From the IMG/VR virus record IMGVR_UViG_3300036861_001052, positions 32,001-96,000 of that record: 64,000 nucleotides of DNA, one strand, 5' to 3'. The notes under the pieces were generated by a model. The model was not told the origin of the DNA. It searched no databases and was given only the letters and a program-made list of their open reading frames with translations. The DNA is from a virus. Made by a program: the position numbers and the translations under genes. This document shows, in pieces, positions 45,861 through 64,000 of this stretch. Each line of letters starts with the position of its first letter. Position 1 is the first letter of the stretch.

Positions 45861-46394
45861 ATGTACCAGAGCACGGGACTTGGTCGCGGCGGCGGAGGTG
45901 GTGGGCACGGCGGCGGCGGTCATGGCGGGGGAGGCCACGGCGGTGGGGGTCATGGTGGCGGAGGCGGTGCTCGCGCGGGCGGTGGAGGCGGAGCGCGTGT
46001 CAGCGGAGGCGGCGGAGCGCGTCACGGCGGCGGCGGCCATCACGGTGGTCACCACGGCGGACGCGGCCGCGGTCCCACGAACGTTTTCGTGACCGACGGC
46101 GGCTGGGGACCTGGATGGGGCTGGGGGCCCGGCTATGCGGAGACCGTGTACGTCGACTCGTCGTGCGCTGTCGTCGACGACAGCGGCGTCTGTGTTTGTA
46201 AGTCTTTGAATCTCGACGGCAGCTGCGCGCGGCCCATCATCGGCTGGGTCGGCGGTCGCCCGGTCTACGGACTCGGCGCGGACGAAGAGAAGGCATCGGT
46301 CGCGCCCTGGATCGCCGGCGGGATCTTGCTCGCGCTTGCCGTCGGCGCGTACGCCCTCGATAAGAAGGGCCCAGCTCCGCTCCGTAGCTCGTAA
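45861..46394 (+). CDS. Gly/His-rich tail-anchored protein
   Basis: TGLG, (GGGGH)n, GWGPGWGWG, four Cys, YGLG, C-terminal TM; leaderless promoter TTGCCA-18-TAAACT-8-ATG. Confidence 0.7.
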   Translation: MYQSTGLGRGGGGGGHGGGGHGGGGHGGGGHGGGGGARAGGGGGARVSGGGGARHGGGGHHGGHHGGRGRGPTNVFVTDGGWGPGWGWGPGYAETVYVDSSCAVVDDSGVCVCKSLNLDGSCARPIIGWVGGRPVYGLGADEEKASVAPWIAGGILLALAVGAYALDKKGPAPLRSS

Positions 46395-46403
46395 TCGCGG
46401 ACC

Positions 46404-46655
46404 GTGCAGCTCAAGCGGTGCCGAGGAGTCTGCGGCGAAGAGTGGCCGATCGAGTCCTTCTCTCGCGATCCGGGTAACTCCGACGGTCGCCGGAACGAAT
46501 GTAACGCTTGCCGGCAGGAGCGGCGGGCAGCGCTCGCTCTGGGCGCAGCGCGGAAACGGCCGTGGCAGCACAAATTCGAGCGGGGCTATGACTACACGAC
46601 CGAGCGAGAGCGGCGGCGGGGCGAGGCTGCGGCGCGGCGGCGCATGATCGCATAG
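46404..46655 (+). CDS. Small Zn-finger protein (CxxxC...CxxC)
   Basis: KRCRGVCGE..PIESF.....DGRRNECNAC resembles the N-terminal fingers of HNH/EndoVII proteins. Confidence 0.55.
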   Translation: MQLKRCRGVCGEEWPIESFSRDPGNSDGRRNECNACRQERRAALALGAARKRPWQHKFERGYDYTTERERRRGEAAARRRMIA

Positions 46656-46840
46656 GGGTTCTGGCCGGGAATTGCCCCGCCGGCGCCTCTACTTGAGCTT
46701 CGGCCGGTGTCCCGGTAGAGTGAAGGCTGCAGGGCGCTCCCGACGCCGGCCTCGGGAAAGTTGTGCGCTCGCTCCTCCACCATCAACCGGCGACCTTCAC
46801 ACCAGGCTATCCTGGTGCTCTCGGTTGGTATGGCGAGCCG

Positions 46841-47383
46841 ATGGCGGGGACGCTCTCGAGAAATCCCCCGAACACGCTCGCGGGCTTTCAGGGGCACCCC
46901 GACACGCTTCGAGCGATGGTCCGCGCAGCGCACGGACCGCGGGGCGAGCAGAGCATCCTCGTCCGTAGCGTGACCGAGGAAGTGGTCGGGGACCTTCAGC
47001 CGAAGGACTACCTCGGTGAGATCTTGGCGATTCGCTACTGGGTGACCGAGCACATCCGGTACGTGAACGATTCTCTCCACGTCGAGATCGTGAAAGACCC
47101 GCAGCGAGTCATCGAAGAGATCCTCGCGCGCGGCCGCGCGGCGGAGGACTGCGACGGCATCGCTCTCATGATTGCCGTCATGTGCTTGCAGGTCGGACGC
47201 GTGGCGGAGTTCGTGGTGGTGGGCTTCGGCGAGCCGGGGCACTACAGCCACGTCTTCGTGAGAGTGAAGGAGCCACGGAGCGGCCAATGGATCGTGTGCG
47301 ATCCGGTTGCGGGCTCCGACGAGCGCGGCATGCTCGACCGCGTGACGACGTTTTACACGAAGAGCCTAGACGAGGCGGCCTAA
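46841..47383 (+). CDS. Transglutaminase-like cysteine protease
   Basis: Catalytic triad pattern EDCD / SHVF / VCDP, plus IRYVND...E.VKDP; ATG 46841. Confidence 0.85.
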   Translation: MAGTLSRNPPNTLAGFQGHPDTLRAMVRAAHGPRGEQSILVRSVTEEVVGDLQPKDYLGEILAIRYWVTEHIRYVNDSLHVEIVKDPQRVIEEILARGRAAEDCDGIALMIAVMCLQVGRVAEFVVVGFGEPGHYSHVFVRVKEPRSGQWIVCDPVAGSDERGMLDRVTTFYTKSLDEAA

Positions 47384-48105
47384 TGTCGAGCAGGTTCCAG
47401 AGTCTCAGGCCTCCGTACCCGGTCTACGAGTCGCAACCGATCTTCGGCGGGGACTTGCCGACGATCGACGAGATCGGTCCGCCCGACGTCCGGGCTTCCG
47501 CCACGAACCCCTACTACGACATGTATCGTGGTGCGCACGGTCGGAATTTCTCTGGCCTCGGAGTAACCAACATGATGAGTGCAGACCGCGGTCTCCAGGA
47601 TTACCCGAACGAGCTAGATCTCCTGGCGGAGATGGACGACGTGCAAGGCAACGGCGTCTTCGATCCGCACGGCTCGCACGGAAACATCCATCCCGACGAG
47701 GGCGTCTTCGCCGATCACGAAAACCTCCCGGGCTATCTCGTCCGGGACGAGTACTACGCCCCGAGCCAGGTCATCGACGGCACGACGGGCGAGCCCGTGA
47801 TGTACGTGCCGGGCGGAGCCGTGGCGATCGATCAGTCGCAGCTCGACACCTACCGCGACCGGCAGCTCCTCTGGGAGATCCCGCCCGGGATGAGCGCTGA
47901 GCACCGAGAGGCGCCGCCGGACGGCGAGACGTGGATCCCACACGAGTACTCGTGGCCCATCTCGGGCATCGGCGAGGAGATTTCCCCGCCGGGGAGCGAC
48001 ACGGCGTCGCTTCCGGGGCAGAAGAGCAAGGTGCCGCTGATTGCGTCGTTCGCGATCATCGGCGTCGCCGTCGGAGTCTTCGTCGCAACACTGGTGAAGA
48101 AATGA
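47383..48105 (+). CDS. Tail-anchored virion protein
   Basis: SGLG, SGIG motifs; C-terminal TM + KK. Confidence 0.75.
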   Translation: MSSRFQSLRPPYPVYESQPIFGGDLPTIDEIGPPDVRASATNPYYDMYRGAHGRNFSGLGVTNMMSADRGLQDYPNELDLLAEMDDVQGNGVFDPHGSHGNIHPDEGVFADHENLPGYLVRDEYYAPSQVIDGTTGEPVMYVPGGAVAIDQSQLDTYRDRQLLWEIPPGMSAEHREAPPDGETWIPHEYSWPISGIGEEISPPGSDTASLPGQKSKVPLIASFAIIGVAVGVFVATLVKK

Positions 48106-48512
48106 GCGGAGCCTACCAAAGCATTCTGCCGGAGTTCGATGTGTTCAGGTCGCCGGGTCCCGTGAGGGAGCCTCCCGGAGGTCAGATGCTCGGCGGCGTA
48201 AAGCCCCATCGCGCCGCCGCCTTCATCCTGAATCCCGGCGTTGCCGCGATGCGGGGCCTCGGGCAAACCGAGACGCCTGGCGCTCCGCCCGCGCCGGTCA
48301 TGCCGCCGGAGCCAAAGAAGCTTCCCGTGTGGGCCGCGGTCGGGATCTTGGGGCTCGTCGGATACCTCGGATACGAGATCGGGAGCGCGATGACGCCTTC
48401 CGGATCCAAGAAGACGACGTGGGGTCTCATCGGGATCCCCGTGACGCTTTTCACGGGCCCCTTGGGCCTCGGCGTGATGGGGATCGTCTCCAATCACCAG
48501 AGGAGAAGCTGA
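48102..48512 (+). CDS. Membrane protein
   Basis: MRGLGQ, then TM helices. Confidence 0.75.
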   Translation: MSGAYQSILPEFDVFRSPGPVREPPGGQMLGGVKPHRAAAFILNPGVAAMRGLGQTETPGAPPAPVMPPEPKKLPVWAAVGILGLVGYLGYEIGSAMTPSGSKKTTWGLIGIPVTLFTGPLGLGVMGIVSNHQRRS

Positions 48513-48515
48513 GCC

Positions 48516-48797
48516 ATGAGAGGCATTGGAGCGTACTCACTAACCACGGCGAGTCATCCAGATCCAACCGGAATGCGGTGCGGAGACGGGAGGACCGCTA
48601 TCAAGGAGTCGAACGGTAGCATCTGGTGCTACTCCGATGCCGAGCTCGCTGCGCTCAGGGCAGCTGGTGCTGGCGTTACGGTGCGCAACGCGACTCCATT
48701 CGAGCGGTTTACCCATTCGCTCACGGAAGTTCCGTGGTGGGTCTATGCAGGCATTGGCGCTGGTGGACTCTGGTTCTTGTTGGGGAGGAAGCACTAA
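48516..48797 (+). CDS. Tail-anchored protein
   Basis: Starts MRGIG; PWWVYAGIGAGGLWFLLGRKH anchor. Confidence 0.7.
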   Translation: MRGIGAYSLTTASHPDPTGMRCGDGRTAIKESNGSIWCYSDAELAALRAAGAGVTVRNATPFERFTHSLTEVPWWVYAGIGAGGLWFLLGRKH

Positions 48798-49123
48798 TGG
48801 GCTGCGGTTGCTCGGCGCCTCTCGGTGACTCGATGAACACCTACCAGGGCCCTGTTCCGCCCGGCGTGCCGAATCCGTTCACGCCGATGCTGCACTCGTT
48901 TCCGACGCGCTACCACGGCCCGATCTACACGCGCCCCATGAACCAATTCCCCTGGCGCGAGCGCCCGAACGACTTCGCGCTCGAAGAGGGCATGCAGGGA
49001 CTCGGCGCGGACGACGACAAGGCAATCCCGCCGGCGTGGAAGATGGCCGTCGCCGCGGGCCTCGTGGGCATCACGATCTGGGCCGTCGTCAAATGGGCGG
49101 ACGCCCAGCCAAGGAGGGCGTGA
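48797..49123 (+). CDS. Tail-anchored protein
   Basis: MGCGCSAPLG...MQGLGA, then TM. Confidence 0.72.
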   Translation: MGCGCSAPLGDSMNTYQGPVPPGVPNPFTPMLHSFPTRYHGPIYTRPMNQFPWRERPNDFALEEGMQGLGADDDKAIPPAWKMAVAAGLVGITIWAVVKWADAQPRRA

Positions 49124-49578
49124 TGTACAGGCGCGACGGTCAGCCGATGCCCGAGCACGAAGAGGGCGCCGCCTTCTTCAAGCCGATTGCGGGGCCCGAA
49201 GCGGAGACGGGTCAGATCTGGGGCGTCCAGAAGAATCTCCTCACGCACGGGTTCAATGTGCACGGTCTCGGCGTCCCGGCGATCGATCCCAACACGAGCA
49301 TGATCTCCGACGAGGAGGCCGCGCTCCGGAGCGGAGCGGAGACGCTCCCCGAAGTGAGGATCGAGGGCCAGCCCATGGGCGGCGCAGAGTTCTACGAGAG
49401 CTCCTTCTGGAGACTTCTCGCTGTCGCCGGCATGGCCGTCGGCGCCTACCACGGATACAAGCGGAACAATTCCGTGGGTTGGGGCATCGGCTGGGGACTT
49501 CTCGGCGGACTCGTTCCGATCATCGTGATCCCGATTGCACTCGCACAAGGGATCGGAAAACCCAAAGGCAGGTCGTGA
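49123..49578 (+). CDS. Membrane protein
   Basis: HGLG; GAYHGYKRNNSVGWGIGWGLLGGL...ALAQG hairpin. Confidence 0.75.
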   Translation: MYRRDGQPMPEHEEGAAFFKPIAGPEAETGQIWGVQKNLLTHGFNVHGLGVPAIDPNTSMISDEEAALRSGAETLPEVRIEGQPMGGAEFYESSFWRLLAVAGMAVGAYHGYKRNNSVGWGIGWGLLGGLVPIIVIPIALAQGIGKPKGRS

Positions 49579-50438
49579 TGGACGTCAATACTCGAGGCGG
49601 TCTTTTTGGTCCCGGCGGCTACGGCGGCGGGATCTTCGACGGATCCCAGATGGGCTTCGGAGGGCTCGGACAGTCCGAGCAGGCCGCGGCCGGCATCGGC
49701 CTCGGCGCGACGACCGGCGCCTTTCAGTGGTGCAGCAAGACGAGCCCGTGCGCGACCGGCGATCCGAGGGTGAAGTCTCTTCAGACGGCGCTTAACCGCG
49801 TGCTCGCGGCGCACGGCATGAAGCCGCTCGTCGTCGACGGGAAATTCGGCGCGGCGACGTGCGGCGCCATGGTGTGGCTCGCGGCCGTGCCGGTCGCCGA
49901 GTGGCAGAACGACCCCGTTCTCTCGTCGGCGCACGACTACATGATCGACGCGAGTGGCCACGCCGTGTGCCAGTCGTACACGGCTCCGACCCGGGTCGGA
50001 TCCACGACGCCGGTCGACATCAACAAGGAGATCGGGATCCAGCTCCCGAGCGTGTCGGCGCCCTGGATGCAGCCGAATGGAGATCTGCCGGGCCTGCAGC
50101 AGGGGATCAATCACGATCTCTCCGAGCACGGATTCGATCCGATCTCCGTGACGGGCATGCTCGACGCAGAGACCTGCGGAGCGATGCTCTACGCGAAGGA
50201 ACACTGGGGGATGAGCGAGTACCTCCAGCGCTACGGCCAGAACTGCCAGGCGTTCACGGCGCCGCACCAGCACGCCGTGCCGGTAACGCCCGGGCCTGCG
50301 CCCACGCACGACGAGGAAACGCCGCACGCGGCGGTCGGCGCGAAGAAGAGCGGCGTCTCGACGGCGTGGGTTCTCGGCGGCCTTGCTGCCGCGGCGGGCG
50401 TCGCGGGTCTGGTCGCCATGAACAAGAAGAGGCGCTAG
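49578..50438 (+). CDS. Tail-anchored protein with two peptidoglycan-binding-like domains
   Basis: VKSLQTALN...VDGKFGAATCGA and LQQGIN...VTGMLDAETCGA; GGLG, GIGLG; TM + NKKRR. Confidence 0.75.
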   Translation: MDVNTRGGLFGPGGYGGGIFDGSQMGFGGLGQSEQAAAGIGLGATTGAFQWCSKTSPCATGDPRVKSLQTALNRVLAAHGMKPLVVDGKFGAATCGAMVWLAAVPVAEWQNDPVLSSAHDYMIDASGHAVCQSYTAPTRVGSTTPVDINKEIGIQLPSVSAPWMQPNGDLPGLQQGINHDLSEHGFDPISVTGMLDAETCGAMLYAKEHWGMSEYLQRYGQNCQAFTAPHQHAVPVTPGPAPTHDEETPHAAVGAKKSGVSTAWVLGGLAAAAGVAGLVAMNKKRR

Positions 50439-51049
50439 TGTCGAACTTCGGTCCCATCGCGTACGAAGACTTCTCCCAGCTGAACGCTCGGTGGGGAGAG
50501 GCGCGGCCTGCCGTTGCCGGTCTCGGCGTCGTGTCGGGGCCGCACGACTACGTCGATCTCTCCTACCTGAACGCCCACTACCGGCCGATCCAGCCGGCGG
50601 GCGTCGGCATGGGAAACGGGATCCTCTCCTCGAACTCGCTCGGCATGCTGTCGGGCGGAGGGCTCGGCGAAGATCCGAGCTATCCCTGGCGGGAGTACAG
50701 CGCGGACACGAAGGCGCTCCAGCAAGCGACCAACGAGGCCCTCCAGGCGCACGGCTACGCCCCGATCACGGCCGACGGAAAGCTCGGGCCCGCGACGTGC
50801 GGCGCCATCCGCGCCATGTGCCAGTACGCCGGCGCGGGCTGCGAGGCTCCGGGGACCTGTCAGGACTTCGCGGCGCCTGTGAAGGCTGGCGGCGGCTCGC
50901 TCCTCTCGAAGTCGACCGGGACGAAGACGACGACCGCGTCGCGCGCGAGCATGTTCGGGGGCGGCGGCACGAACTGGATGCTCATCGGCGGCGCGATCGC
51001 TGCGGTCGCGGTCGGCGGCGCCATCATCTACAAGGCGGCGAAGAAATAG
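50438..51049 (+). CDS. Tail-anchored protein with a peptidoglycan-binding-like domain
   Basis: AGLG, GMG, GGLG; KALQQATN...ADGKLGPATCGA; TM + KAAKK. Confidence 0.75.
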   Translation: MSNFGPIAYEDFSQLNARWGEARPAVAGLGVVSGPHDYVDLSYLNAHYRPIQPAGVGMGNGILSSNSLGMLSGGGLGEDPSYPWREYSADTKALQQATNEALQAHGYAPITADGKLGPATCGAIRAMCQYAGAGCEAPGTCQDFAAPVKAGGGSLLSKSTGTKTTTASRASMFGGGGTNWMLIGGAIAAVAVGGAIIYKAAKK

Positions 51050-52652: not shown

Positions 52653-53218
52653 TGACGGTCCGGGTCATAGAAACCAAGGACGTCGCTACGAAAACGTTCG
52701 AGACGTTTTACGATCGGCCAAGCAAGAGGGAGATCCCGCTCGAGTTCGGGTGGCCGAAGGAGCTCCAGGAGGTCGGCGTCGGCAAAGCGGAGATGTACAC
52801 CTCGAACAAGTGGAAAAAGAGCCGCTCGGACTTCGAGGACTACAAGCACGTCGCCGAGGGCCTTCGCACGGTGTACGCCGAGCCCGGCTTTCTGCGAGTT
52901 GGCGCGCACCCGGCGCGCATGATGCCGGTCTACGGACCGATGGCGAGCTTCGAGGAGCCGATGCCGAAGCACTTCGCGAGGCTCGGGCCGCTTCTCGGTG
53001 TGCAGGTCAGGCTCTACGACCGGGACGACAAGGGTGAGCTCTACGTGCCGGGCGGCGACGATCGGGTCTACGAGGTCGAGATTGCGCGCGCCTGGCTCGG
53101 CTCGGCCAGGCACCCAGGCACCAAAGAGACCTTCCTCTTCGTGTACACTCCGGATGGCGTCCACATGATCCTCACGGGAGACAAGCTCTCCATCGAAAAG
53201 GACGGCATTGCCGGGTGA
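52652..53218 (+). CDS. Soluble putative virion core protein
   Basis: Within the structural operon, no TM; function inferred from context. Confidence 0.6.
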   Translation: MTVRVIETKDVATKTFETFYDRPSKREIPLEFGWPKELQEVGVGKAEMYTSNKWKKSRSDFEDYKHVAEGLRTVYAEPGFLRVGAHPARMMPVYGPMASFEEPMPKHFARLGPLLGVQVRLYDRDDKGELYVPGGDDRVYEVEIARAWLGSARHPGTKETFLFVYTPDGVHMILTGDKLSIEKDGIAG

Positions 53219-56694: not shown

Positions 56695-56722
56695 CCCTTC
56701 CGGCCCGAGGGAAACGCCGGTG

Positions 56723-56815: not shown

Positions 56816-59272
56816 GTGAGAGGCAAGCACAAAGCGTACGGTCGAGCGTTTCCAATCCGGGAAGCGGACGTCGGCTCGTACAAGGTAGCGCGTCACCGTC
56901 CCTATCGAGCGAATCCGATGGGCGTGACGACGCTGTCGAGCGTCAACGGCCCGGGCGCGTATTCCGCGCGTGCGGCCTCGAGTGGGCTTTCCCGCGCCGA
57001 GCGTCTGCGGCGCGCGCGCCGGCTCATGGAGAACCGAAGCATGCAAGGACACAAGGTGCACAGGGCCAAGTTCGTACGGCGCATGAAGGCAAACAGCGGT
57101 CGGATGACCTCGAACGCTGCCCGACGCCGCGCGGGCAAACGCCTCGCTGCGTTTCAGGCAGCTCGGCGTCGTGGGCTTTCGAAGGAAGCGGCGATGCGGA
57201 GCGCGTCCCGGAAGTTTCCGAAGAGTCGCCGGCGTGGCTACCGCCGAAACGAGGGACCGGCTCAGGTCGCTTCCCCCGCCTACCGGTCGGGCCACGAGCG
57301 GATCTACGGGAAAAAGGCTCAGCGAAGGCGCGCCGCCGCGGCAAAGCGGAAAGCGCATCGCGCCGAGGTCGCCGCGCGTAAGCGCGCTCGTAAGGCTGCC
57401 GCTCGCGCGAAGAAGCGCGCAGCGATGACGCCGGAAAAGCGCGCTTCGCTCCGAAAGCGCCGCCGCAGGGCGAGCTTTCCTAAGCAGTACAAGAAGGTGC
57501 GGGGCCGAAGGGGCAAGATGCACCGAGTGCGAGTGGCGTACGGACCGTACCGCCGCGCGCGCCTTTCCGATCCGAGGTCAGGCCGAAAGCGCCTCTCCTA
57601 CACCTATCGAGGCAAACGCGGCAAACGCCGCAAGATTCCGCAGTGGGCCGTTGCCGGAGCAGTCAGTGCGCGCGACTACAAGACGTCGAGCGTGTACGGG
57701 CGCGCCCGGGAGCGGATCGCACGGCGTCGTAAACGTGCTGCCGCTCGCGTAGAGCGCAGCGGAGATGCGTTCGTTCCGAACGCGGGAGCAAGAAAAGTGG
57801 CAAGACGAAGAAAGCGAAAAGGGCACAAGCGTTCCCGCCGGGGACGTCGCAAGGTGAAACGGACGCGCGGTCGCGCGCGGCGCCGATCGGCGGGTCACAC
57901 CGTCCGCAGGCGCAAGAGGCGCAAGTCAGCGAGCCGCCGGACAGCCCGGAAGCACCGTGCGAGCCCGCATCGCCGGAAGAAGCGTCGTGCGCACGCGAAG
58001 AGGCGTTCCACGCGCCGCCGGTCCAAGCGCCGGTCGCACCCGCGTCGGATCGGTCGCCGCAAGGTGAGGCGCCTGAGAAAAGGCATCTACCTGGTCGCGA
58101 ACCGCCGTCGCCGTCGCTCGCGCCGCCGCTACGAGGAAAACCGCAGGGTCCGCCGGCATCGTCGTCGGAAGCTCGCGGCAAATCCGCGTCGCAGGCGTCG
58201 CTCGCGGCGTCACGTCGCAAACCGCAGGCGCCGAACGCATCGGCGTCGGAGCTACCGTCGTAACCGGAGCTACCGCCGTAACGGCTTCATGGGCGACTTG
58301 AAGACGCTCGCGAAGATGGGCTTCCTGGTCCTCGGCGGCTTCTTCCTCCACAAGGGGATCACGGGCGGAATCATTCGGGCGCTGACGTCTACGGACGCCT
58401 CGACCGGAGCGATGACGTTCGCCTCGCTGCCGATGATCGGAGCCGACGGCAAACCGACGGTTCTCGCGACTTGGCAGAAGCCGCTCGTCGGAGGCCTGTT
58501 CGGCGGTCTCGGCATCTTCGGGATCTCCAAGCTCCCGATGAAGTCGGACACCCGGAATGCGCTGTCAGCGGGCGTGGTGACGTCGTTCCTTCAGAGCCTC
58601 GTCCACACGATCCTGACTGTCGCAAACCAGCCGGAGGTCCTCTCCTATCTCGAGGGTTACCAGAACAGCGCAGCGTACTCGCTCCGCGGTACCCGAGGGA
58701 AACGGCGCCGTCACCCGATGCGAGGCCTCGGCGTCGCACGGAACGCGACGTCGATCATGCCGCACTACGCACCTGTCGGACAGTTCCAGCAGGCCGCAGC
58801 CGGCATGGGCGAGTACTTCGCGGCTCAGAGCGGCATGGGTGAGTACTTCGCGGGTCCCGGCGTCGAAGGCGTCGGTCACTACGAGAAGGCTGGCCCCTTG
58901 GCGCTTCAGCCCTCGACGAGCCGGATGGGTAACCTTCCGATCGACGACGGCATTCGCCCCGACTCGAACCTCGACCACGTGATGGATCTCGCGGAAAGCG
59001 CGGCCGGTCTCGGCCAAGGTTTCCGTCAGGCCGCCGCGGGAGTCGGGGCGGGCCCGGGTTACCGGCAGGCAGCTGCCGGTATGGGCGAGTACTTCTCGGC
59101 TGCCCCGCAAGACGGCGGCTACAAGGAGTTCTCGGTCCCGACGCAGTCGCAGTGGATCCCCTCGGGGCCCCTCTGGGCCGGCACGATGAGTGCCGACGCT
59201 GCGTACACGGAGAGCGAGCTCCCGGCTGGGATCCTCCAGGGTCCTGGCGGAAACGGAGTGCTCTCGGGCTGA
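56816..59272 (+). CDS. Protamine-like Arg/Lys-rich core protein fused to a membrane domain and GMG-repeat tail
   Basis: About 490 aa extremely R/K-rich, then 2-3 hydrophobic helices, then repeated (AA/QS)GMGEYF; lies directly upstream of the capsid gene. Confidence 0.8.
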   Translation: MRGKHKAYGRAFPIREADVGSYKVARHRPYRANPMGVTTLSSVNGPGAYSARAASSGLSRAERLRRARRLMENRSMQGHKVHRAKFVRRMKANSGRMTSNAARRRAGKRLAAFQAARRRGLSKEAAMRSASRKFPKSRRRGYRRNEGPAQVASPAYRSGHERIYGKKAQRRRAAAAKRKAHRAEVAARKRARKAAARAKKRAAMTPEKRASLRKRRRRASFPKQYKKVRGRRGKMHRVRVAYGPYRRARLSDPRSGRKRLSYTYRGKRGKRRKIPQWAVAGAVSARDYKTSSVYGRARERIARRRKRAAARVERSGDAFVPNAGARKVARRRKRKGHKRSRRGRRKVKRTRGRARRRSAGHTVRRRKRRKSASRRTARKHRASPHRRKKRRAHAKRRSTRRRSKRRSHPRRIGRRKVRRLRKGIYLVANRRRRRSRRRYEENRRVRRHRRRKLAANPRRRRRSRRHVANRRRRTHRRRSYRRNRSYRRNGFMGDLKTLAKMGFLVLGGFFLHKGITGGIIRALTSTDASTGAMTFASLPMIGADGKPTVLATWQKPLVGGLFGGLGIFGISKLPMKSDTRNALSAGVVTSFLQSLVHTILTVANQPEVLSYLEGYQNSAAYSLRGTRGKRRRHPMRGLGVARNATSIMPHYAPVGQFQQAAAGMGEYFAAQSGMGEYFAGPGVEGVGHYEKAGPLALQPSTSRMGNLPIDDGIRPDSNLDHVMDLAESAAGLGQGFRQAAAGVGAGPGYRQAAAGMGEYFSAAPQDGGYKEFSVPTQSQWIPSGPLWAGTMSADAAYTESELPAGILQGPGGNGVLSG

Positions 59273-59447: not shown

Positions 59448-61028
59448 ATGGCAAAACTGACGAACGTCAGAGAGCGTGTGCATCACGCGGACGTTCGGTG
59501 AAAGCGAAAGCTGGTGCCCCTCGGCGGTAACGCCGGGGTGATAACTGGGTGAATCAAACCGTTTCGTGATGAGAATGAGAACTTCAGACACAGACATCGC
59601 CTGGCTTGCTGGAATCGTGGACGGCGAGGGCTGCTTCTCCGTGAAGCGTCCCATCGTTCGCAAGACCTACAAGAAGGGGCGAGTGACGAGCTACCAAGTG
59701 TGGCTGGTCGTCTGTAATACGTCCGAGCCGATGGTACGTCGGGTCACGGAGATCTTCGGATCTCTCGGGATCGGGCACCAGCCGGTGAGGCGCGTCTGGA
59801 AGGGAAAGAAGGCAACTCGGTGGCAGTACTGGGTGCACGTCGCGCGAAAGCACGAGCTCTTGCGTCTGACGGAACTCCTCCTGCCTTTCCTCGTGGCCAA
59901 AAAAGACGAGGCCGAGATCGTGCGCTGGTTCCTATCGAGGGCTTGCAGCACGAGGCAATACGTTCCCACTCTTCTCGATCGTACCGCGCTCGAAGCGATG
60001 GCCACGATCAAGCGACACGGCGGGGAAGCCCCTGCTGAGGTGCGAGAGCTCCTTCGCGAGGTAATCCCGAGCCAAGCCGTTTCTGGGATCCGTGCGGCCC
60101 ACGGATTGGAGACGGAAGGCGTAGAGACTAGGTCGGTGACTCCCAAGAATAACCCGACCCACGAGTGCCCGGCGCCCCTCCACTTGGTGGGGTGATGAGA
60201 TAGCCCGACACTCCGGGAAACCGGAGAGCCCGCATAAACAGCGGGCATGACAGAAGCAAGCAGCCGTTTTACGACACGCTCATCCGAACCTCCGGTCTCG
60301 GCGGTTCCATCCCCAAGGTGAATCAGCGGACCTCGCTGTTCACGAACCAGGCTCGCCAGGACGACATCAACGCCCTGACGAACCTGCCGAACGGTTCGAC
60401 GCTCCCGTCCGACCAGAGCCACGTGACGCTCGCGCTTCGCGTGTTCATCTGGTTCCGCAATCCGCAGATCCGCGCAAGCGGCTTTGCGAACGGTGCGATC
60501 AAGAACAACGGCGACTTCTCCCAAGCGGGAGCGGCGGCGTTCTTCTCGCAAGGCGGAGTCGACCCGAACGGCGCGACCGCGGGCCCCGGCGCCTTCAACT
60601 ACCCGGGCTCGATCGAGGACGTCTACCGCCTGTACTGGCAGTCGGAAGAGCAGCTTCACTGGAGCTACGGCACCGGTGACAAGTTCTCGATCACGAACAT
60701 GCCGACGAAGTACTTCCCGGACGGCGGTGGCCTCTGGGGTGACCTCGGTGGCTCTTCGGATCTCATCCACTTCAACAACGGCACGCCGGACCACACGGCA
60801 ATTCTCCGGCTCGCGCGCGCGATCCTTCTGCCTCCCCGGCAGAACATCAAGTGCGCCGCCGAGATCGTGCCCTTGCCCGACGGTGGAAACGCCCAGATCG
60901 CTGGATCGACCGTGACCGGCAACGGCCGGAACATGCTGTCGCTCCAGGACAACCTGAACGCGACCGACGGGATCAACAAGGTGATTCAGTTCACCTTCGA
61001 CGGTCTCTTCGCCCGCGACGTTCAGTAG
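59448..61028 (+). CDS. Putative major capsid protein (jelly-roll type), spliced: 59448-59483 + 60261-61028, 267 aa
   Basis: AAAGGA RBS + ATG 59448; joined reading MAKLTNVRERVH|QPFYDTLIRT...LF...TNL..GSTLPSDQ; exon 2 has no in-frame ATG after TAG 60201; the capsid identity is inference from motif pattern and context. Confidence 0.7.
59484..60260 (+). ncRNA. Group I self-splicing intron (777 nt)
   Basis: Exon ends in U, intron ends in G; IGS GCTGGTGC (59510-59517) pairs GCAU (P1, U-G) and CAGC (P10); Q-like AATCCCGAGCCAAG, R-like GTAGAGACTA, S-like GAGATAGCCC; P9 CTCCGG-GAAA-CCGGAG. Confidence 0.9.
59566..60195 (+). CDS. Intron-encoded single-motif LAGLIDADG homing endonuclease
   Basis: DIAWLAGIVDGEGCFSV, LVVCNTS, LLPFLVAKK; 3' end reads through the intron core. 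Confidence 0.92.
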   Translation: MMRMRTSDTDIAWLAGIVDGEGCFSVKRPIVRKTYKKGRVTSYQVWLVVCNTSEPMVRRVTEIFGSLGIGHQPVRRVWKGKKATRWQYWVHVARKHELLRLTELLLPFLVAKKDEAEIVRWFLSRACSTRQYVPTLLDRTALEAMATIKRHGGEAPAEVRELLREVIPSQAVSGIRAAHGLETEGVETRSVTPKNNPTHECPAPLHLVG

Positions 61029-61139
61029 CTTCGAACGCAGGTTGATCGCGCGCCTGAGCCAAGCGCGGTACGGCACGGACGGCGGTTTCCCTCAAAAGAG
61101 CCGCCGTCCGGTACTCCTCACGGAGGCACGAAAAAAGAC

Positions 61140-62132
61140 ATGGCAAGTTGGGAACAGGTCATTCGAGACCTGCAGAACACGGCAGGCTTTGCCGCCGCAA
61201 AGGCGAAGGAAGCGATCGACAAGGCAGGCCGAAACGAGAGCGCCCTCGCGCTCGTCCGGCAAGAGCTCGAACGCGAGCAGCGCTCCATGCAAGCGCTCGC
61301 CGACGCGCTCGAAAAGGTCCAGGGCCGCGGCGCGGGCTACGGTAACGGTAACGTCGGCGTCGACGAGCGCGTGCGCTACATCGAGTCGATCCCGGGTCGC
61401 AGGATCCCGTTCGACTTCGTCGTGACGATTCCTATTTCTTCGAACTCGGTCTCGCAGGTCCAGGGCACGAAGACCGTGAGCCAGGACGGGCCGTTCGTGG
61501 CGGTTGCGCGCTACGCGGCGTTTCAGTCCGCGTTCCAGTTTCAACGGGTAGACCCCGTCACGCAGGAGAAGGCGGTCTTTCAAGGACGCTCCTTCGGCCG
61601 TTTTCGTCCGATGCACTCCATGTGGGACCTGAACGATGCCTCGACCGGCGTCTTTCAGCCGACGACCGGCATCGCTCAGCCGGGCACGGGCGCGCCGATC
61701 GTGGCGGCTCCCTCGAACATGTCGTCCTTCCGCACGATGGAAGGCGACTTCATCATCCAGATGCTGAATCAAGGCGCTGGCTACCCTCGCGACAATCAGG
61801 ACGGCGGCATTCCGAGCGCCTGGTACTCCGAGAGCATCAACAGCCCCTTCCAGCTCGGAGCCTTGGACTTCTTCGAGCGCGGCGAGACGATCCAGTGGAA
61901 GGTCACGCCGACGCACGTCAATAACCCGCCGGCAGGTAACCTTTCGGGTTACGCTGCGGGTGGCGTGTTCCCGTTCCTCGCGAGCCAGTACGACGTGCAC
62001 GAGGGCATCAACGACCAGCTCGATCCCGAGGCAACGAGCGATCCCATCACGAGGCTCCCCGACGGGATCTTGTGGATAGGGATGCACGGGATCAAGATCG
62101 TGCAGCCCCCCGGGCCGGTGAGGCTCACCTAA
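61140..62132 (+). CDS. Second putative capsid protein (N-terminal coiled coil + beta-rich domain)
   Basis: GGAGG RBS; IPFDFVVTI...TVSQDGPFVAV...FFERGETIQWKV...IGMHGIKI beta-strand pattern. Confidence 0.55.
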   Translation: MASWEQVIRDLQNTAGFAAAKAKEAIDKAGRNESALALVRQELEREQRSMQALADALEKVQGRGAGYGNGNVGVDERVRYIESIPGRRIPFDFVVTIPISSNSVSQVQGTKTVSQDGPFVAVARYAAFQSAFQFQRVDPVTQEKAVFQGRSFGRFRPMHSMWDLNDASTGVFQPTTGIAQPGTGAPIVAAPSNMSSFRTMEGDFIIQMLNQGAGYPRDNQDGGIPSAWYSESINSPFQLGALDFFERGETIQWKVTPTHVNNPPAGNLSGYAAGGVFPFLASQYDVHEGINDQLDPEATSDPITRLPDGILWIGMHGIKIVQPPGPVRLT

Positions 62133-62140
62133 GGAGAATT

Positions 62141-63046
62141 TTGACCCTCCGATCACATTTGACGCCGCGGCAGGTCAAGGGGCTCGGCCTCGGAGCCCCG
62201 TCGCCGCCGGCGGAGCCCGTACGCGTGCTCGATCCGTGGCGAGGCGATCCGCCTCCTCCTCAGCCCTACGAGGGCGAGGGGATCAGCCACGGCTGCGACG
62301 CTTCCCGGGTCCAGCTCGCCGGAGGGGCGCTGAACACCCTCCTCGTCCATCCCGAGGTGACGCCCTTCGAGCAGCTCTACCGGCGCCTGCCCGAGGAGGG
62401 GATGTTTCTCGACTCGGTCGGCCCGGAGAATCCGTTCACGTTCGAGCTCGGGGCGTTCCGCGTGCCGGACACGTTCACGCTGCTCTTGTTCGATTTGAGG
62501 CCAGACATCTATCGCTTCAGCGGCGTGGATCCGGGAGACACGATCCCGGTCGAGGCGCGGCGCTTCAGCTCGGTTCTCGGCTTTCAGATCACGGTCGACC
62601 AGCGCCAGCCCGCCAATCTCCTCTACCAGCTCGATCCGGCGCCGATTCAGACGTTTCCCGAGGCCTTCACGAATCCGATCGGCGCTCCCGGCGAGCTCCC
62701 GCCCGCCATCGCGGCGGCAATCGGTTTCCAGAACGGATCGCGCTTCAACCTCTCTCAGGCGACGAGCGTCGCGACGGCTTCGGGCGCCGGAGACCAGCTC
62801 CAGCCACAGAGGCCGACCCGGTACGGGCCCTTGTCCGTGCCGTTTACGATGTACATCCGGCCCGGGCAGACGTTTCAAGTCCGCTGCGTGATCTTCAATC
62901 CGGTGCCGAGCCCGATTGCGTTCATCGAGTACGACATCGCTGGCATGCTCATGCCGGACACGTGGGTGACGACGATGACCGAGTGCATGAAGCCGCTCTC
63001 GAACGCTTCGCACGGTCCAGGCTCTCTCGGGGGAGGTCCACGGTGA
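62141..63046 (+). CDS. Third putative jelly-roll structural protein
   Basis: TTG start behind AAGGAG; KGLGLG near N-terminus; FRVPDTFTLLL...YIRPGQTFQV...YDIAGMLMP. Confidence 0.55.
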   Translation: MTLRSHLTPRQVKGLGLGAPSPPAEPVRVLDPWRGDPPPPQPYEGEGISHGCDASRVQLAGGALNTLLVHPEVTPFEQLYRRLPEEGMFLDSVGPENPFTFELGAFRVPDTFTLLLFDLRPDIYRFSGVDPGDTIPVEARRFSSVLGFQITVDQRQPANLLYQLDPAPIQTFPEAFTNPIGAPGELPPAIAAAIGFQNGSRFNLSQATSVATASGAGDQLQPQRPTRYGPLSVPFTMYIRPGQTFQVRCVIFNPVPSPIAFIEYDIAGMLMPDTWVTTMTECMKPLSNASHGPGSLGGGPR

Positions 63047-63048
63047 CT

Positions 63049-63173
63049 TCGGTGAAGGAGGCCAGCCGGCCGCCGTCGCGCTTCCAGCGGGTATGGACGA
63101 ACGCACCCCTATCGGACATGGGGGCTGTCGAGTCTTACTCGGGAAACGGCGGACGGCTGGCCTCCTTCACCGA
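63049..63173. repeat. 28-bp inverted repeat (1 mismatch) enclosing 69 nt
   Basis: TCGGTGAAGGAGGCCAGCCGgCCGCCGT (63049-63076) versus ACGGCGGaCGGCTGGCCTCCTTCACCGA (63146-63173). Confidence 0.85.
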
Positions 63174-63185
63174 GCTCGAGGCGTC

Positions 63186-63953
63186 ATGGTGATGCAGAGC
63201 TACGTCGAAGGCGGCGCCTCCCAGATGGGGACGGCGTGGGACGAGATCGGGATCTTGCCTGCTCCCCCCGGAACGTCGCTCGGCCAGATGGACGCGATGA
63301 GTCTCTTCTCGGAGGTCTCGGACGCGCTCCGCCTGCGGCCCATCGGTGTCGTGACGCCCTGGGCAGCACGCGTCGGTGATCTCGAGTGGGAGGACATTCC
63401 CCATCCCGACACGAACGTGATGCTCTGGGAGCTCACGGACGCGGCCATCAATGCCGTGCCGGAGGTGACGTTCGGGAGTCCCTTGCCGTTCGTGGGGATC
63501 GTGACGTCGCGGCCGATGAGCGTCGCAGAGACGCGAAAGATGTGGGAGGGGACAGCCTACGCTCCGTACGAGACGCAAGCCGTCTACCGGCAGGACGACG
63601 CGAAGGATCCGCCGACTGCGCTCTTCTTGCACTGGGGCGAGCGCATCGACATCGCGAAGCTTCCGAAGGAGGTCTTGCTCCTCGGCCCCCGCGCTTCGGC
63701 CGCCGCGGGAAGCCTCGTCTTCGCGGCTCAGATCCCAGCGCAGAATTCGACCACGCGCGCAGCTCCGTCGAGCTCGTTTGCTTCGGTCCTCGCGCGGCAG
63801 GCGCCGCTTCCGCCGGAGCCGCCGCCGAATCCCACGCCGGGCCCGATCCCTCTCGGCCCTGTCAAAGAGGACAAGATGAATCTCGGCGTGCCGATCGCCG
63901 TAGGGCTAGGGGCAGCGGCTCTCGGCTTCTTGCTCTGGAAGAGGAAGAGGTAA
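63186..63953 (+). CDS. Tail-anchored protein
   Basis: ATG 63186 behind GAGG; Pro-rich linker, TM + KRKR. Confidence 0.7.
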   Translation: MVMQSYVEGGASQMGTAWDEIGILPAPPGTSLGQMDAMSLFSEVSDALRLRPIGVVTPWAARVGDLEWEDIPHPDTNVMLWELTDAAINAVPEVTFGSPLPFVGIVTSRPMSVAETRKMWEGTAYAPYETQAVYRQDDAKDPPTALFLHWGERIDIAKLPKEVLLLGPRASAAAGSLVFAAQIPAQNSTTRAAPSSSFASVLARQAPLPPEPPPNPTPGPIPLGPVKEDKMNLGVPIAVGLGAAALGFLLWKRKR

Positions 63954-63958
63954 GGCGC

Positions 63959-64000
63959 ATGTATACGGGCGTTGGACAAGACTCTGGCATGGTGTTTCTT
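63959..64000 (+). CDS. 5' fragment of the next structural gene (MYTGVGQD...)
   Basis: ATG after the previous stop, begins with a G-V-G motif like its neighbours. Confidence 0.5.
   Translation, partial: MYTGVGQDSGMVFL

What the first reader, a model, noticed from the sequence alone, without database searches (positions are those of the whole stretch)
45861..64000. Shared G-[LMIV]-G motif across unrelated virion proteins next to a transglutaminase-like protease: candidate maturation code
Seen: otherwise dissimilar proteins carry the motif at the extreme N-terminus (MYQSTGLG, MRGIG, MTYSGLG, MYTGVG, LRGLG, VKGLGLG) or directly before a TM or domain boundary (VYGLGA, ISGIGE, MRGLGQ, MQGLGA, FGGLGQ, GGGLGE, VAGLGL, RPGLGT). 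It also occurs repeatedly in the 818-aa protein and three times in the distant 11486-11953 protein. The operon starts with a Cys-His-Asp transglutaminase-like gene (46841-47383). Known: adenovirus, ASFV and poxvirus mature their virions with Cys proteases cutting at Gly motifs. Inference: an analogous bacterial-virus system using a transglutaminase-fold enzyme; alternatively the motif is an assembly or sorting tag.
Basis: partly seen in the sequence, partly recalled or inferred. Interest (0 to 1): 0.88.

Follow-up and report, generated by a model that had tools for sequence, protein, structure and literature searches.

The report
Shared Gly-Leu-Gly tag beside viral enzyme
A family of large uncultivated bacterial viruses marks many membrane-anchored proteins of one gene block with the same short hydrophobic-x-Gly-Leu-Gly tag and encodes a conserved cysteine enzyme at the head of that block, which may cut at the tag during particle assembly, though no cutting has been shown.

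Summary
In the + strand gene block from window 45861 onwards (it runs past the window end), G-[LIMV]-G occurs 35 times against 15.8±3.6 in composition-matched shuffles, and G-L-G 20 against 5.8±2.3. The rest of the 138-kb virus genome is slightly depleted. The signal is Leu-specific; Val is not enriched. It lies in the coding frame only. It ranks second among tripeptides seen at least 5 times. It recurs in 17 of 18 related viral loci. It starts at the enzyme gene: upstream 30 observed/33.7 expected, downstream 229/62.2. The extended motif is hydrophobic-x-G-L-G. It lies in short N-terminal leaders, in linkers before C-terminal membrane anchors, and at module junctions. The neighbouring 180-aa protein is a confident transglutaminase-fold enzyme; its Cys-His-Asp triad is intact in 34 of 34 homologues. 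Its only homologue in deposited phages is a structural protein of the membrane-containing phage SSIP-1. Cleavage is the best reading (about 0.4) but unproven; a non-cleaved docking or sorting tag is nearly as likely. This scan already found the same pattern on another genome (e1-6148705).

The parts
45861..46394 (+). 177-aa tail-anchored Gly/His-rich protein. It carries MYQSTGLG at the N-terminus and VYGLGA 8 residues before the TM helix.
   Evidence: The N-terminal motif is kept in 2 of 3 orthologues and the pre-TM one in 1 of 3.
46841..47383 (+). 180-aa transglutaminase-fold Cys-His-Asp enzyme (C104, H137, D154). It is soluble and carries no motif of its own.
   Evidence: Orthologues align from residue 29 of the longer ORF. 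Transglut_core scores 23.2 bits against a cut-off of 23, and 49 of 61 relatives match. AF2 pLDDT is 94.2. Foldseek finds the TGase/papain-like fold. The triad is intact in 34 of 34.
47383..48105 (+). 240-aa tail-anchored protein with FSGLGV at residue 58 and ISGIGE at 195 (TM at 220).
   Evidence: Both motifs are kept in 3 of 3 orthologues while the flanks diverge.
48102..48512 (+). About 136-aa membrane protein with AMRGLGQ. The start at 48102 is inferred from orthologue lengths; my model began at 48186.
   Evidence: MRGLG/MRGLG/VKGLG/MRGLG.
48797..49123 (+). 108-aa tail-anchored protein with a conserved YPTRYHG module. The module is bracketed by an N-terminal xGLG (degenerate APLG here) and MQGLGA 12 residues before the TM.
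   Evidence: alignment A4. The module is fused to the 49575 homologue in L045, L047 and L050, with the motif at the junction.
49123..49578 (+). 151-aa tail-anchored protein with VHGLGV at residue 48.
   Evidence: motif kept in 1 of 3 orthologues.
49575..50438 (+). 287-aa tail-anchored protein with FGGLGQ at 30 and AGIGLGA at 40-44. It gives a weak PG_binding_1 hit.
50438..51049 (+). 203-aa tail-anchored protein with VAGLGV at 28, GVGMG at 55-59 and GGGLGE at 75.
   Evidence: VAGLG/MAGLG kept in 3 of 3.
51442..52302 (+). 286-aa two-TM protein with VAGLGL directly before the first TM.
   Evidence: VAGMG in 3 of 3 orthologues.
53215..55143 (+). 642-aa membrane protein with LRGLGV at residues 14-19.
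   Evidence: kept in 2 of 3.
55286..56335 (+). 349-aa tail-anchored protein that starts MTYSGLG.
   Evidence: G1 has MSYSGLG; G2 and G3 lack it.
56335..56694 (+). 119-aa tail-anchored protein with RPGLGT abutting the TM.
   Evidence: kept in 2 of 3; the third has SLG.
56816..59272 (+). 818-aa protein. Its N-terminal ~490 aa are extremely Arg/Lys-rich, followed by hydrophobic segments and then MRGLGV, three GMGEYF, AAGLGQ, GVG and more (8 instances in all).
   Evidence: EYF is the top tripeptide of the block.
59448..59483 (+). First 12 codons (MAKLTNVRERVH) of capsid candidate 1. They are separated from the rest of the gene by a 777-nt insert.
   Evidence: Orthologues have an uninterrupted gene.
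60261..61028 (+). Remainder of capsid candidate 1, the most conserved protein of the block (85-91% identity to the three close relatives). RTSGLGG lies near the N-terminus.
   Evidence: GLG is kept in only 7 of 19 family members.
61140..62132 (+). 330-aa capsid candidate 2: a long N-terminal helix plus a beta-rich body. It carries no motif.
   Evidence: best Z 7.4 to jelly-roll capsid chains, inconclusive.
62072..63046 (+). Capsid candidate 3, with RQVKGLGLG near the N-terminus. The true start is uncertain.
   Evidence: G[LIMV]G falls in the first 45 aa in 6 of 14 family members.
63959..64000 (+). Start of a 124-aa tail-anchored protein (MYTGVG...) that runs off the window. The block continues to about window-equivalent 70169.
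11486..11953 (-). 155-aa membrane protein outside the block with AAGMGA, PDGLGA and PDGMGA ahead of its TM region and basic tail. It sits beside the collagen-repeat genes.

Best explanation
A clade of uncultivated, high-GC, roughly 110-140-kb bacterial viruses tags the products of one ~24-kb gene block with a short linear motif, hydrophobic-x-G-L-G (Leu preferred over Met and Ile). The block encodes mostly proteins with a C-terminal TM helix and basic tail, plus an Arg-rich core-like protein. The tag sits where processing sites sit. It occurs in very short N-terminal leaders (typically M-(S)-Y-x-G-L-G), in the linker between a soluble module and its C-terminal membrane anchor, and between modules that are separate genes in one genome and fused in another. 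The most likely mechanism is inferred, not shown. A virus-encoded cysteine protease recognises the tag and cuts within it, by analogy between Leu and the second Gly. This would trim leaders and free ectodomains from their anchors during particle assembly. The best candidate for the protease is the conserved transglutaminase-fold Cys-His-Asp enzyme encoded at the head of the block. What is shown: the motif's enrichment, specificity, frame, conservation, positions and genomic boundary, and the enzyme's fold and intact triad. What is inferred: that the enzyme acts on the motif, that the action is cleavage, and that the proteins are virion components.
For: Enrichment over two kinds of shuffle, with depletion elsewhere in the genome. 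Leu-specificity. Protein-level signal: 15 different 9-mers encode 29 GLG; all 29 are in the coding frame, against 0 and 6 in the other sense frames and 4 on the antisense strand. GLG ranks second among tripeptides seen at least 5 times in this block (z 8.0). In ten loci with 34-57% identity it is again second among tripeptides seen at least 15 times (126 observed/40.6 expected, z 13.4). Across 18 loci around the capsid candidate, GLG sums to 233 observed/71.5 expected, while the GAG control sums to 110/117.4 (hand sums). Sharp boundary at the enzyme gene in 32 loci: 30/33.7 upstream against 229/62.2 downstream. Context in 172 non-TM GLG: position -2 is hydrophobic in 55% against a 29% background (Met 4.0x), position -1 is Ser/Ala, and Ala/Gln/Glu/Asp follow. 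This is the pattern (M/I/L)XGX-G of the adenovirus protease (PMC7998265, passage). Positions: 64 of 172 lie in the first 35 residues, which hold 15.9% of all residues. 65 of 1,010 proteins begin M-x(0-6)-G[LIMV]G against 15.0±4.5 in shuffles, and 50 of the 65 are tail-anchored. The motif lies at the junction of modules fused in L045, L047 and L050. Orthologues keep the motif where flanks diverge: motif columns are 76% identical against 54% for flanks. Enzyme: pLDDT 94.2; the nearest solved folds include putative cysteine proteases 3isr and 3kd4 and the protease LapG; the triad and D77/E82/D103/D105 are invariant in 34 of 34. Intein-like inserts sit exactly at the catalytic Cys in homologues. 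Enzymes of this fold are known to cut at short small-residue motifs: LapG at a di-alanine (PMC10990149, passages) and the lasso-peptide B leader peptidase (PMC10368454, passage and abstract). The SSIP-1 homologue gp34 is annotated as a structural protein.
Against: No cleavage has been observed. Leu is nearly fixed at the position where adenain accepts any residue. Leaders of only 5-6 residues have no obvious reason to be removed. Arrays such as QAAAGMGEYF (39 G[LMIV]GE[YF][FY] instances) look more like multivalent binding sites. Motif columns are only modestly more conserved than other glycines of the same proteins (0.76 against 0.68). Only 96 of 141 orthologue cells, and 23 of 48 instances across all orthologues, keep the motif. 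The motif in capsid candidates 1 and 3 is not conserved clade-wide (7 of 19, 6 of 14). SSIP-1 has the enzyme homologue but no GLG excess (4/4.2), and G[LIM]G is only 13/7.8 in its late half. The fold also includes amidases, acyltransferases, cross-linkers and the cell-wall endoisopeptidase Pei, so the fold does not imply a protease. The enzyme-motif link rests on adjacency within one clade; no independent lineage could be tested.
Confidence: 0.4

Rival explanations
1. The motif is a non-cleaved docking or sorting tag. In this reading it is a short peptide through which many membrane proteins bind one common partner (capsid shell, scaffold or membrane organiser), so that they are selectively incorporated into the particle or an assembly site. 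The enzyme next door has another job.
For: The motif occurs on many otherwise different proteins of one block and almost nowhere else. It is strongest on tail-anchored proteins: 92 observed/20.2 expected outside their last 40 residues. Repeated arrays such as QAAAGMGEYF (39 related instances; EYF is the top tripeptide) suit multivalent binding. An extreme N-terminal M-(S)-Y-x-G-L-G (65 of 1,010) would work as a terminal docking peptide without any cutting. The near-fixed Leu fits a binding pocket.
Against: No partner has been identified. The match to a Gly-specific cysteine-protease pattern, the placement at module junctions and anchor linkers, and the invariant adjacency of an active-looking Cys-His-Asp enzyme would all be coincidences.
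Confidence: 0.3
2. The motif is functional but the transglutaminase-fold enzyme is unrelated to it. The enzyme would be a particle-associated cell-wall peptidase for entry or exit (like Pei), or a protein cross-linker. The motif would be handled by a host factor or by another viral protein.
For: The fold family includes pseudomurein endoisopeptidase (PF12386 matches 1 of 61 relatives; PeiP 8z4f; phage psiM2 Pei) and true transglutaminases (4xz7, TglA 9crn). The SSIP-1 homologue is a structural protein, as entry lysins of membrane-containing phages are (recalled for PRD1). Two neighbours give weak PG_binding_1 hits (E about 0.006, below cut-off). SSIP-1 has the enzyme but no GLG excess.
Against: The motif excess begins at the enzyme gene in all 30 of the 32 loci that held sequence downstream. 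No other protease family was found, but only Peptidase_C5 was searched genome-wide and 39 window ORFs were scanned against Pfam.
Confidence: 0.15
3. The enzyme is a transpeptidase that works like a sortase. It would cut at the motif in front of a membrane anchor and join the freed carboxyl group to an amine, for instance the N-terminal Gly exposed at another carrier's leader, so stitching particle proteins together covalently.
For: Some carriers have motif, TM helix and basic tail in that order, like sorting signals. 26 of 172 non-TM GLG lie within 40 residues upstream of a TM. Cutting before the second Gly would expose an N-terminal Gly. Enzymes of this fold do acyl transfer through a thioester (established for transglutaminases; recalled).
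Against: The spacing to the TM is variable, from 0 to about 25 residues. Most motifs are N-terminal or internal. The enzyme is soluble. Nothing suggests cross-links.
Confidence: 0.08
4. The motif has no function of its own. It would be a by-product of Gly-rich flexible linkers, glycine-zipper TM packing, and common descent of duplicated small membrane proteins.
For: 37 of 209 GLG lie in TM helices. Some carriers share modules. Conservation is only modestly above that of other glycines.
Against: Shuffles within 30-residue windows keep local composition and still give 20 against 5.6±2.3. GAG, GVG and GSG are not enriched. Flanking positions show specific preferences. The excess persists down to 34% identity of the capsid candidate, where flanks cannot be aligned. 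Tail-anchored candidates elsewhere in the genome mostly lack the motif: 17 of 20 have none.
Confidence: 0.07

Closest known systems
Adenovirus protease (adenain, MEROPS C5) and its consensus sites (M/I/L)XGX-G and (M/I/L)XGG-X
   Same: Both involve a Gly-based pentapeptide with a hydrophobic residue four positions before the presumed cut, present in many late proteins (PMC7998265, passage). Here the carriers include an Arg-rich core-like protein and membrane-active proteins, and a viral Cys-His-Asp/Glu-type enzyme is at hand.
   Different: No C5 homologue exists in the genome. The enzyme has a transglutaminase fold. Leu is nearly fixed where adenain takes any residue. The host is prokaryotic. 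Most carriers are tail-anchored. Cleavage has not been shown.
LapG / BTLCP (bacterial transglutaminase-like cysteine proteinases, Pfam PF06035)
   Same: Same fold and the same Cys-His-Asp triad, and a proven endoprotease that cuts at a two-small-residue motif (di-alanine) to release a protein from its retention module (PMC10990149, passages). Structural match to 4u65_E at E 8.7e-4 and to 4fgq; profile match at E 0.03.
   Different: LapG is periplasmic, calcium-dependent and has one adhesin substrate. Only 4 of 61 relatives match PF06035 weakly, and the window's protein does not.
Lasso-peptide B (B2) leader peptidase
   Same: It is a cysteine protease with homology to transglutaminases that removes a leader peptide, guided by a conserved residue next to the cut (PMC10368454, abstract and passage).
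   Different: It acts on one small precursor with a partner recognition protein. Only 1 of 61 relatives matches Transglut_core3, at E 0.009. No lasso cyclase was seen here among the ORFs scanned.
C-terminal sorting signals (sortase LPXTG; exosortase PEP-CTERM; rhombosortase GlyGly-CTERM) - recalled, not looked up
   Same: Some carriers have a short motif, then a TM helix, then a basic tail at the C-terminus.
   Different: The distance from motif to TM varies. Most motifs are N-terminal or internal. The candidate enzyme is soluble and of another fold.
Salisaeta icosahedral phage 1 (SSIP-1) gp34
   Same: It is the only homologue of the enzyme in 50,697 deposited phage records (27% identity, E 2e-8; phmmer E 1.2e-11). 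gp34 is annotated as a structural protein. SSIP-1 is a membrane-containing tailless phage with two major capsid proteins (PMC4958249, passage).
   Different: SSIP-1 is 43.8 kb and gp34 itself is tail-anchored. GLG is not enriched (4/4.2). No other SSIP-1 protein matches this genome by sequence or by profiles of the three capsid candidates.

Membership tests
Transglutaminase-like superfamily (Pfam PF01841 Transglut_core; papain-like fold) | Profile score at or above the curated cut-off | tested here: met
   23.2 bits against a cut-off of 23 with the start at 46841 (22.6 with the longer ORF). 49 of 61 relatives match, best E 6.2e-16. The pass is marginal for the window's own sequence.
Transglutaminase-like superfamily (Pfam PF01841 Transglut_core; papain-like fold) | Cys-His-Asp catalytic triad | tested here: met
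   H137 is invariant and C104 and D154 are kept in at least 90% of 61 diverse relatives. All three are kept in 34 of 34 clade members.
Transglutaminase-like superfamily (Pfam PF01841 Transglut_core; papain-like fold) | Fold | tested here: met
   The AF2 model has pLDDT 94.2 and pTM 0.90. Foldseek gives 7 PDB matches at E<=0.001, all transglutaminase-like: 3isr, 3kd4, PNGase and LapG.
Adenain-type viral maturation system | Protease of family C5 (PF00770) | tested here: not met
   No match in the whole 138-kb genome at E<=1.
Adenain-type viral maturation system | (M/I/L)XGX-G-like sites in several late or particle proteins | tested here: met
   Position -2 is hydrophobic in 55% of 172 non-TM GLG against 29% background. 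28 of 40 block ORFs carry at least one G[LIMV]G. This is a pattern match only.
Adenain-type viral maturation system | Cleavage at the sites in particles | not testable with these tools
   It needs protein chemistry on particles or co-expression.
BTLCP / LapG family (PF06035 Peptidase_C93) | Profile match | tested here: not met
   The window's protein has no PF06035 hit at E<=0.01. 4 of 61 relatives match, best E 2.7e-4.
Sortase/exosortase-like C-terminal sorting signal | Motif immediately followed by a TM helix and a basic tail at the C-terminus | tested here: inconclusive
   This is true for some carriers (56335-56694, 51442-52302, 45861-46394). But only 26 of 172 non-TM GLG lie within 40 residues of a TM, and 64 of 172 are N-terminal.
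Lasso-peptide B protease (PF13471 Transglut_core3) | Profile match | tested here: not met
   1 of 61 relatives matches at E 0.009; the window's protein does not.
Membrane-containing tailless phages (SSIP-1 / vertical single beta-barrel group) | Jelly-roll major capsid protein(s) | tested here: inconclusive
   The model of the 330-aa candidate is weak (pLDDT 58.3). Its best Z is 7.4 to capsid jelly rolls, within the noise range the tool states. Profiles of the three candidates do not match SSIP-1 proteins. The Atlas lead to PRD1 P3 families scores only 0.76-0.77.
Membrane-containing tailless phages (SSIP-1 / vertical single beta-barrel group) | Many small membrane proteins in the structural module; no tail or terminase genes | tested here: inconclusive
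   26 of 40 block ORFs are tail-anchored, against 20 of 213 elsewhere. No Terminase_6N was found. The FtsK and A32 hits are replication P-loops. 19 of 20 proteins have no PHROG. Absence of matches is weak evidence.

The most novel reading that the evidence does not exclude
The transglutaminase-fold enzyme is a particle-associated maturation protease that cuts at hydrophobic-x-G-L|G in twenty or more membrane and core proteins. That would be the first proteolytic 'maturation code' in a membrane-containing prokaryotic virus and the first viral maturation protease of this fold. It would have evolved convergently with the Gly-specific proteases of adenoviruses, asfarviruses and poxviruses. The clade itself (110-140 kb, Arg-rich core-like protein, collagen-like fibres, no recognisable tail or terminase genes) would be a new kind of large tailless bacterial virus.
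Probability: 0.33. Interest if true: 0.9.

Novelty: new variant of a known kind. Interest (0 to 1): 0.75.

Why it matters
How membrane-containing viruses of bacteria choose which membrane proteins enter the particle, and whether they mature by proteolysis, is largely unknown. This finding offers a simple, conserved five-residue tag on some twenty proteins per genome and one candidate enzyme with a defined catalytic Cys. Together they make the question directly testable by co-expression and mutagenesis, without culturing the virus. If the tag is a cleavage site, it is a convergent counterpart of the adenovirus/asfarvirus/poxvirus maturation systems, built on a different protease fold. If it is a docking tag, it is a rare example of a shared particle-incorporation signal. 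Either way it defines a large uncultivated viral family: 583 homologues of one capsid candidate and 1,851 cluster representatives of the enzyme.

Tried and rejected
Chance or composition as the cause: rejected by two kinds of shuffle, by the rest-of-genome control, by the GAG/GVG controls and by the unbiased tripeptide scan.

A DNA-level repeat as the cause: rejected.

TM glycine packing as the sole source: rejected, because the excess persists outside TM segments.

Complex prediction of the enzyme with residues 1-79 of the 48797-49123 protein gave 'no answer' (score 0.30, mark 0.32). It counts neither way.

An automated search for gene fusions found none because of its 50% coverage filter. 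Manual inspection then found three fused forms, which may share one ancestral event.

I tried to test the enzyme-motif link in independent lineages and could not. An alignment of distant homologues was too divergent for the locus finder. Two single distant homologues had no relatives in viral contigs. The one genome-contig hit (L063) is another clade member.

The nature of the virus stays open. There is no megablast match in phages. 19 of 20 proteins have no PHROG. Atlas searches gave only unnamed clusters or leads below 0.9. No terminase or packaging ATPase was found. The capsid-candidate model is weak. Rfam found nothing at gathering thresholds.

Literature: full-text searches for a transglutaminase-like maturation protease in phages listed no such system. 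I saw the listings and passages of PMC10318531 only, so this is not proof of absence. The SSIP-1 paper (PMC3344969) is not held; its N-terminal sequencing data could bear directly on cleavage. Supplementary files were not consulted.

Full report
WHAT THE DNA IS. The window is bases 32001-96000 of a 138,414-base viral record with direct terminal repeats, estimated complete. It is about 65% G+C. It has no near match among 50,697 deposited phage genomes. I built a codon-usage gene model for the whole genome (254 ORFs). I corrected two ORFs by hand: the Gly-rich 45861-46394 and the Arg-rich 56816-59272, which left 253 ORFs. All counts below depend on this home-made model. Frame and orthologue checks support it.

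THE OBSERVATION. In the 26 + strand ORFs from 45861 to about 64.4 kb (5,779 aa), G[LIMV]G occurs 35 times. Whole-protein shuffles give 15.8±3.6 (0 of 300 reach 35). Shuffles confined to 30-residue windows give 16.5±3.9. GLG occurs 20 times against 5.8±2.3. The same gene block continues beyond the window (14 ORFs; 15 against 4.9; GLG 9 against 1.5). The other 213 ORFs of the genome are, if anything, depleted (44 against 56.2; GLG 11 against 21.0).

The excess is specific to the middle residue. For G-x-G in the block, observed/expected is Leu 29/7.3, Ile 8/4.1, Met 6/2.5, Val 7/7.6 and Ala 14/12.2. So the motif is G-L-G with some Met and Ile, and not Val. The signal is not a DNA repeat. The 29 GLG are written with 15 different 9-mers and ordinary codon usage. 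All 29 are in the coding frame, against 0 and 6 in the other two sense frames and 4 on the antisense strand. Among those seen at least 5 times in this block, GLG ranks second (z 8.0), behind EYF. In ten distant relatives, among those seen at least 15 times, it is again second (126 against 40.6, z 13.4), behind Arg runs.

RELATIVES. The 330-aa protein at 61140-62132 has 583 homologues, all unnamed, many on contigs of 100-136 kb. Three close relatives (G001-G003) have the same gene order. In their blocks GLG is 20/7.7, 39/8.4 and 28/7.9 observed/expected, against 29/7.7 here. In 18 viral loci around homologues of that protein (34-78% identity), GLG on the + strand exceeds expectation in 17; the exception is L025, 1 against 1.2. 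By my hand sum of that table the totals are 233 against 71.5. The GAG control sums to 110 against 117.4.

In 32 loci centred on the enzyme gene, ORFs upstream of the block have 30 GLG against 33.7 expected (78,269 aa). + strand ORFs downstream have 229 against 62.2 (73,336 aa). Several of those loci are near-duplicates, and two held no downstream sequence.

Conservation is good but not absolute. 96 of 141 orthologue cells keep G[LIMV]G, and 23 of 48 instances are kept in all orthologues. For 36 non-TM instances, motif columns are 76% identical, flanks 54% and other glycines of the same proteins 68%. Typical cases keep the motif while the flanks change: AMRGLGQ/AMRGLGQ/AVKGLGA/AMRGLGD, GMQGLGA/GMQGLGA/GMMGLGE/QMNGLGI, and VAGLGL/VAGMGF/VAGMGI/VAGMGG.

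ANATOMY OF THE MOTIF. I took 172 GLG outside TM helices in this block and 12 relatives; 37 more lie inside TM helices. The residue two places before the first Gly is hydrophobic in 55% (background 29%; Met 4.0x, Ile 2.5x, Leu 1.9x). The next residue is mostly Ser or Ala. Acidic residues are scarce just before the motif. Ala, Gln, Glu or Asp follow it.

There are three kinds of position. (a) N-terminal. 64 of 172 lie in the first 35 residues, which hold 15.9% of all residues. 65 of 1,010 distinct proteins begin M-x(0-6)-G[LIMV]G against 15.0±4.5 in shuffles. Typical starts are MSYSGLG, MYAGLG and MYRGIG, and 50 of the 65 are tail-anchored. (b) In the linker before a C-terminal TM helix, as in 45861, 47383, 48797, 51442 and 56335. 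(c) Between modules. The YPTRYHG module of 48797-49123 and the protein of 49575-50438 are separate genes here but one protein in L045, L047 and L050, with the motif between them. In the close orthologues that module is bracketed by a motif on each side (alignment A4).

A sub-class, G[LM]GEYF, is repeated in the 818-aa protein and a paralogue (39 instances).

The carriers are mostly tail-anchored. 26 of 40 block ORFs end in a TM helix plus basic tail, against 20 of 213 elsewhere, where many are doubtful. In 13 loci, tail-anchored proteins have 92 GLG outside their last 40 residues against 20.2 expected, and the others 70 against 28.6. Two carriers lie outside the block. The other is a tail-anchored ORF upstream of the window that starts MLYGLGA.

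RESULTS AGAINST. The motif near the N-termini of capsid candidates 1 and 3 is conserved among close relatives. It is not conserved clade-wide: 7 of 19 and 6 of 14 family members have it, and distant candidate-1 proteins read RT.G[YWML]..G. The 330-aa candidate has none. SSIP-1, the one cultured phage sharing the enzyme, has no GLG excess (4 against 4.2). It has only a mild G[LIM]G excess in its late half (13 against 7.8; early half 1 against 3.1). Four of its proteins (gp36, gp37, gp52, gp53) do carry x-G-[LM]-G at residues 17-34.

THE ENZYME. Orthologues align from residue 29 of the long ORF, so the gene most likely starts at 46841 (180 aa). It then scores 23.2 bits on Transglut_core (cut-off 23), and 49 of 61 diverse relatives match that family. 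The family is large: 1,851 cluster representatives at E<=0.001. H137 is invariant in the 61-sequence alignment, and C104 and D154 are kept in at least 90%. All three, plus D77, E82, D103 and D105, are kept in 34 of 34 clade members.

The AF2 model is confident (pLDDT 94.2, pTM 0.90). Its nearest solved folds are two 'putative cysteine proteases' (3isr, 3kd4), PNGase, LapG (4u65_E, 4fgq), TglA, a TGase, TgpA, Rad4/XPC, arylamine N-acetyltransferases, PeiP, VASH1 and CPR-C4. The fold and triad are therefore secure. The reaction is not, since this fold hosts proteases, amidases, cross-linkers and acyltransferases.

Four longer homologues carry Hint-like matches (below cut-off) and LAGLIDADG matches. 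In P0123 the ~148-residue insert sits exactly at the catalytic Cys. That is the usual position of an intein, and it argues that the Cys is essential.

The gene is present in 15 of the 18 contigs that hold the capsid candidate. The genome has no Peptidase_C5.

LINK TO A CULTURED PHAGE. A protein-level search of deposited phages finds one homologue only, gp34 of Salisaeta icosahedral phage 1 (27% identity, E 2e-8; phmmer E 1.2e-11). Its record annotates gp34 as a structural protein. The top hit in the viral structure library is an unnamed 304-residue protein (E 1e-9), the same length as gp34. SSIP-1 is described as a membrane-containing phage of the group with two vertical single beta-barrel capsid proteins (PMC4958249, passage). 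No other SSIP-1 protein matches this genome by sequence or profile.

This supports two points: the enzyme is a particle component, and the clade may have an internal membrane. It also strengthens the rival reading that the enzyme is a particle-borne cell-wall peptidase.

WHAT KIND OF VIRUS. This remains open. The window holds DnaB and a DnaC-like loader. It also holds four collagen-repeat proteins and glycosyl- and methyltransferases. There is no Terminase_6N and no packaging ATPase. 19 of 20 proteins have no PHROG. The 330-aa candidate folds weakly (pLDDT 58.3) into a long helix plus a beta body. Its best matches are capsid jelly rolls at Z 7.1-7.4, inside the tool's stated noise range. 'Virion proteins' is therefore an inference from gene order, tail-anchoring and the SSIP-1 link.

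MECHANISM. The best-supported reading (about 0.4) is a processing site for a viral cysteine protease, most likely the adjacent enzyme. Several points favour it. The motif has the form of Gly-specific cysteine-protease sites, (M/I/L)XGX-G for adenain (PMC7998265). It sits at leaders, anchor linkers and module junctions. Its excess begins at the enzyme gene. Enzymes of this fold are proven site-specific endoproteases in LapG (PMC10990149) and in lasso-peptide B proteins (PMC10368454).

A non-cleaved docking or sorting tag is nearly as likely (about 0.3). Repeated arrays, a fixed Leu and five-residue 'leaders' fit binding well. Other rivals are an unrelated enzyme (0.15), sortase-like ligation (0.08) and a by-product of composition and paralogy (0.07).

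NOVELTY. Full-text searches found no transglutaminase-fold maturation protease or shared tag of this kind in phages (listings and passages only). The same pattern was already reported by this scan on another genome (e1-6148705). My analysis is independent of that report but not independent evidence. I class the finding as a new variant of a known kind (motif-directed viral maturation or sorting), with high interest because it is simple to test.

Noticed in passing
window 56816-59272 (+): An 818-aa protein whose first ~490 residues are almost entirely Arg/Lys-rich (protamine-like). Hydrophobic segments and the motif-rich tail follow. RRR is the top tripeptide in distant relatives (142 observed/30.7 expected).
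   Followed up: partly
window 59448-61028 (+): Capsid candidate 1 is interrupted after codon 12 (MAKLTNVRERVH) by a 777-nt insert holding a LAGLIDADG ORF (59566-60195). The three close relatives have an uninterrupted gene. Rfam Intron_gpI scores only 18.4 bits (cut-off 50) at 59970-60227.
   Followed up: partly
proteins P0123, P0128, P0138, P0149 (homologues of 46841-47383): Intein-like inserts: Hint hits below cut-off and LAGLIDADG_3 hits. In P0123 the insert sits exactly at the catalytic Cys of the transglutaminase-fold enzyme.
   Followed up: partly
window 2836-10641 (-) and 12038-15468 (+): Four collagen-triple-helix-repeat proteins (345-609 aa) lie next to glycosyltransferase, TPR and methyltransferase genes. 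They may encode glycosylated surface fibres.
   Followed up: no
L063 (8.8-kb contig of a MAG labelled Candidatus Saccharibacteria): The contig carries the same enzyme (42% identity), followed by tail-anchored ORFs that begin MSYHGLG and MSYRGIG. Its 60% G+C suggests a mis-binned member of this viral clade rather than a host clue.
   Followed up: partly
window 49575-50438 and 50438-51049 (+): Both give weak PG_binding_1 hits (E about 0.006, 17 bits, cut-off 23) in two tail-anchored motif carriers. This hints at contact with the cell wall.
   Followed up: no
window 48797-50438 versus L038, L039, L045, L047, L050, L056: Modules of neighbouring small membrane proteins are shuffled among relatives. 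The YPTRYHG module is fused either to the 49575-type body or to the 49123-type TM tail.
   Followed up: partly
L064 (SSIP-1) 21296-22210: SSIP-1 gp34 carries the enzyme domain, then RGMGE at residue 211, then a C-terminal TM helix. That is the same domain-motif-anchor layout as the presumed substrates in this clade.
   Followed up: no
window 29985-32182 (+): A DnaC/IstB-like AAA+ loader sits directly upstream of a DnaB-type helicase.
   Followed up: no
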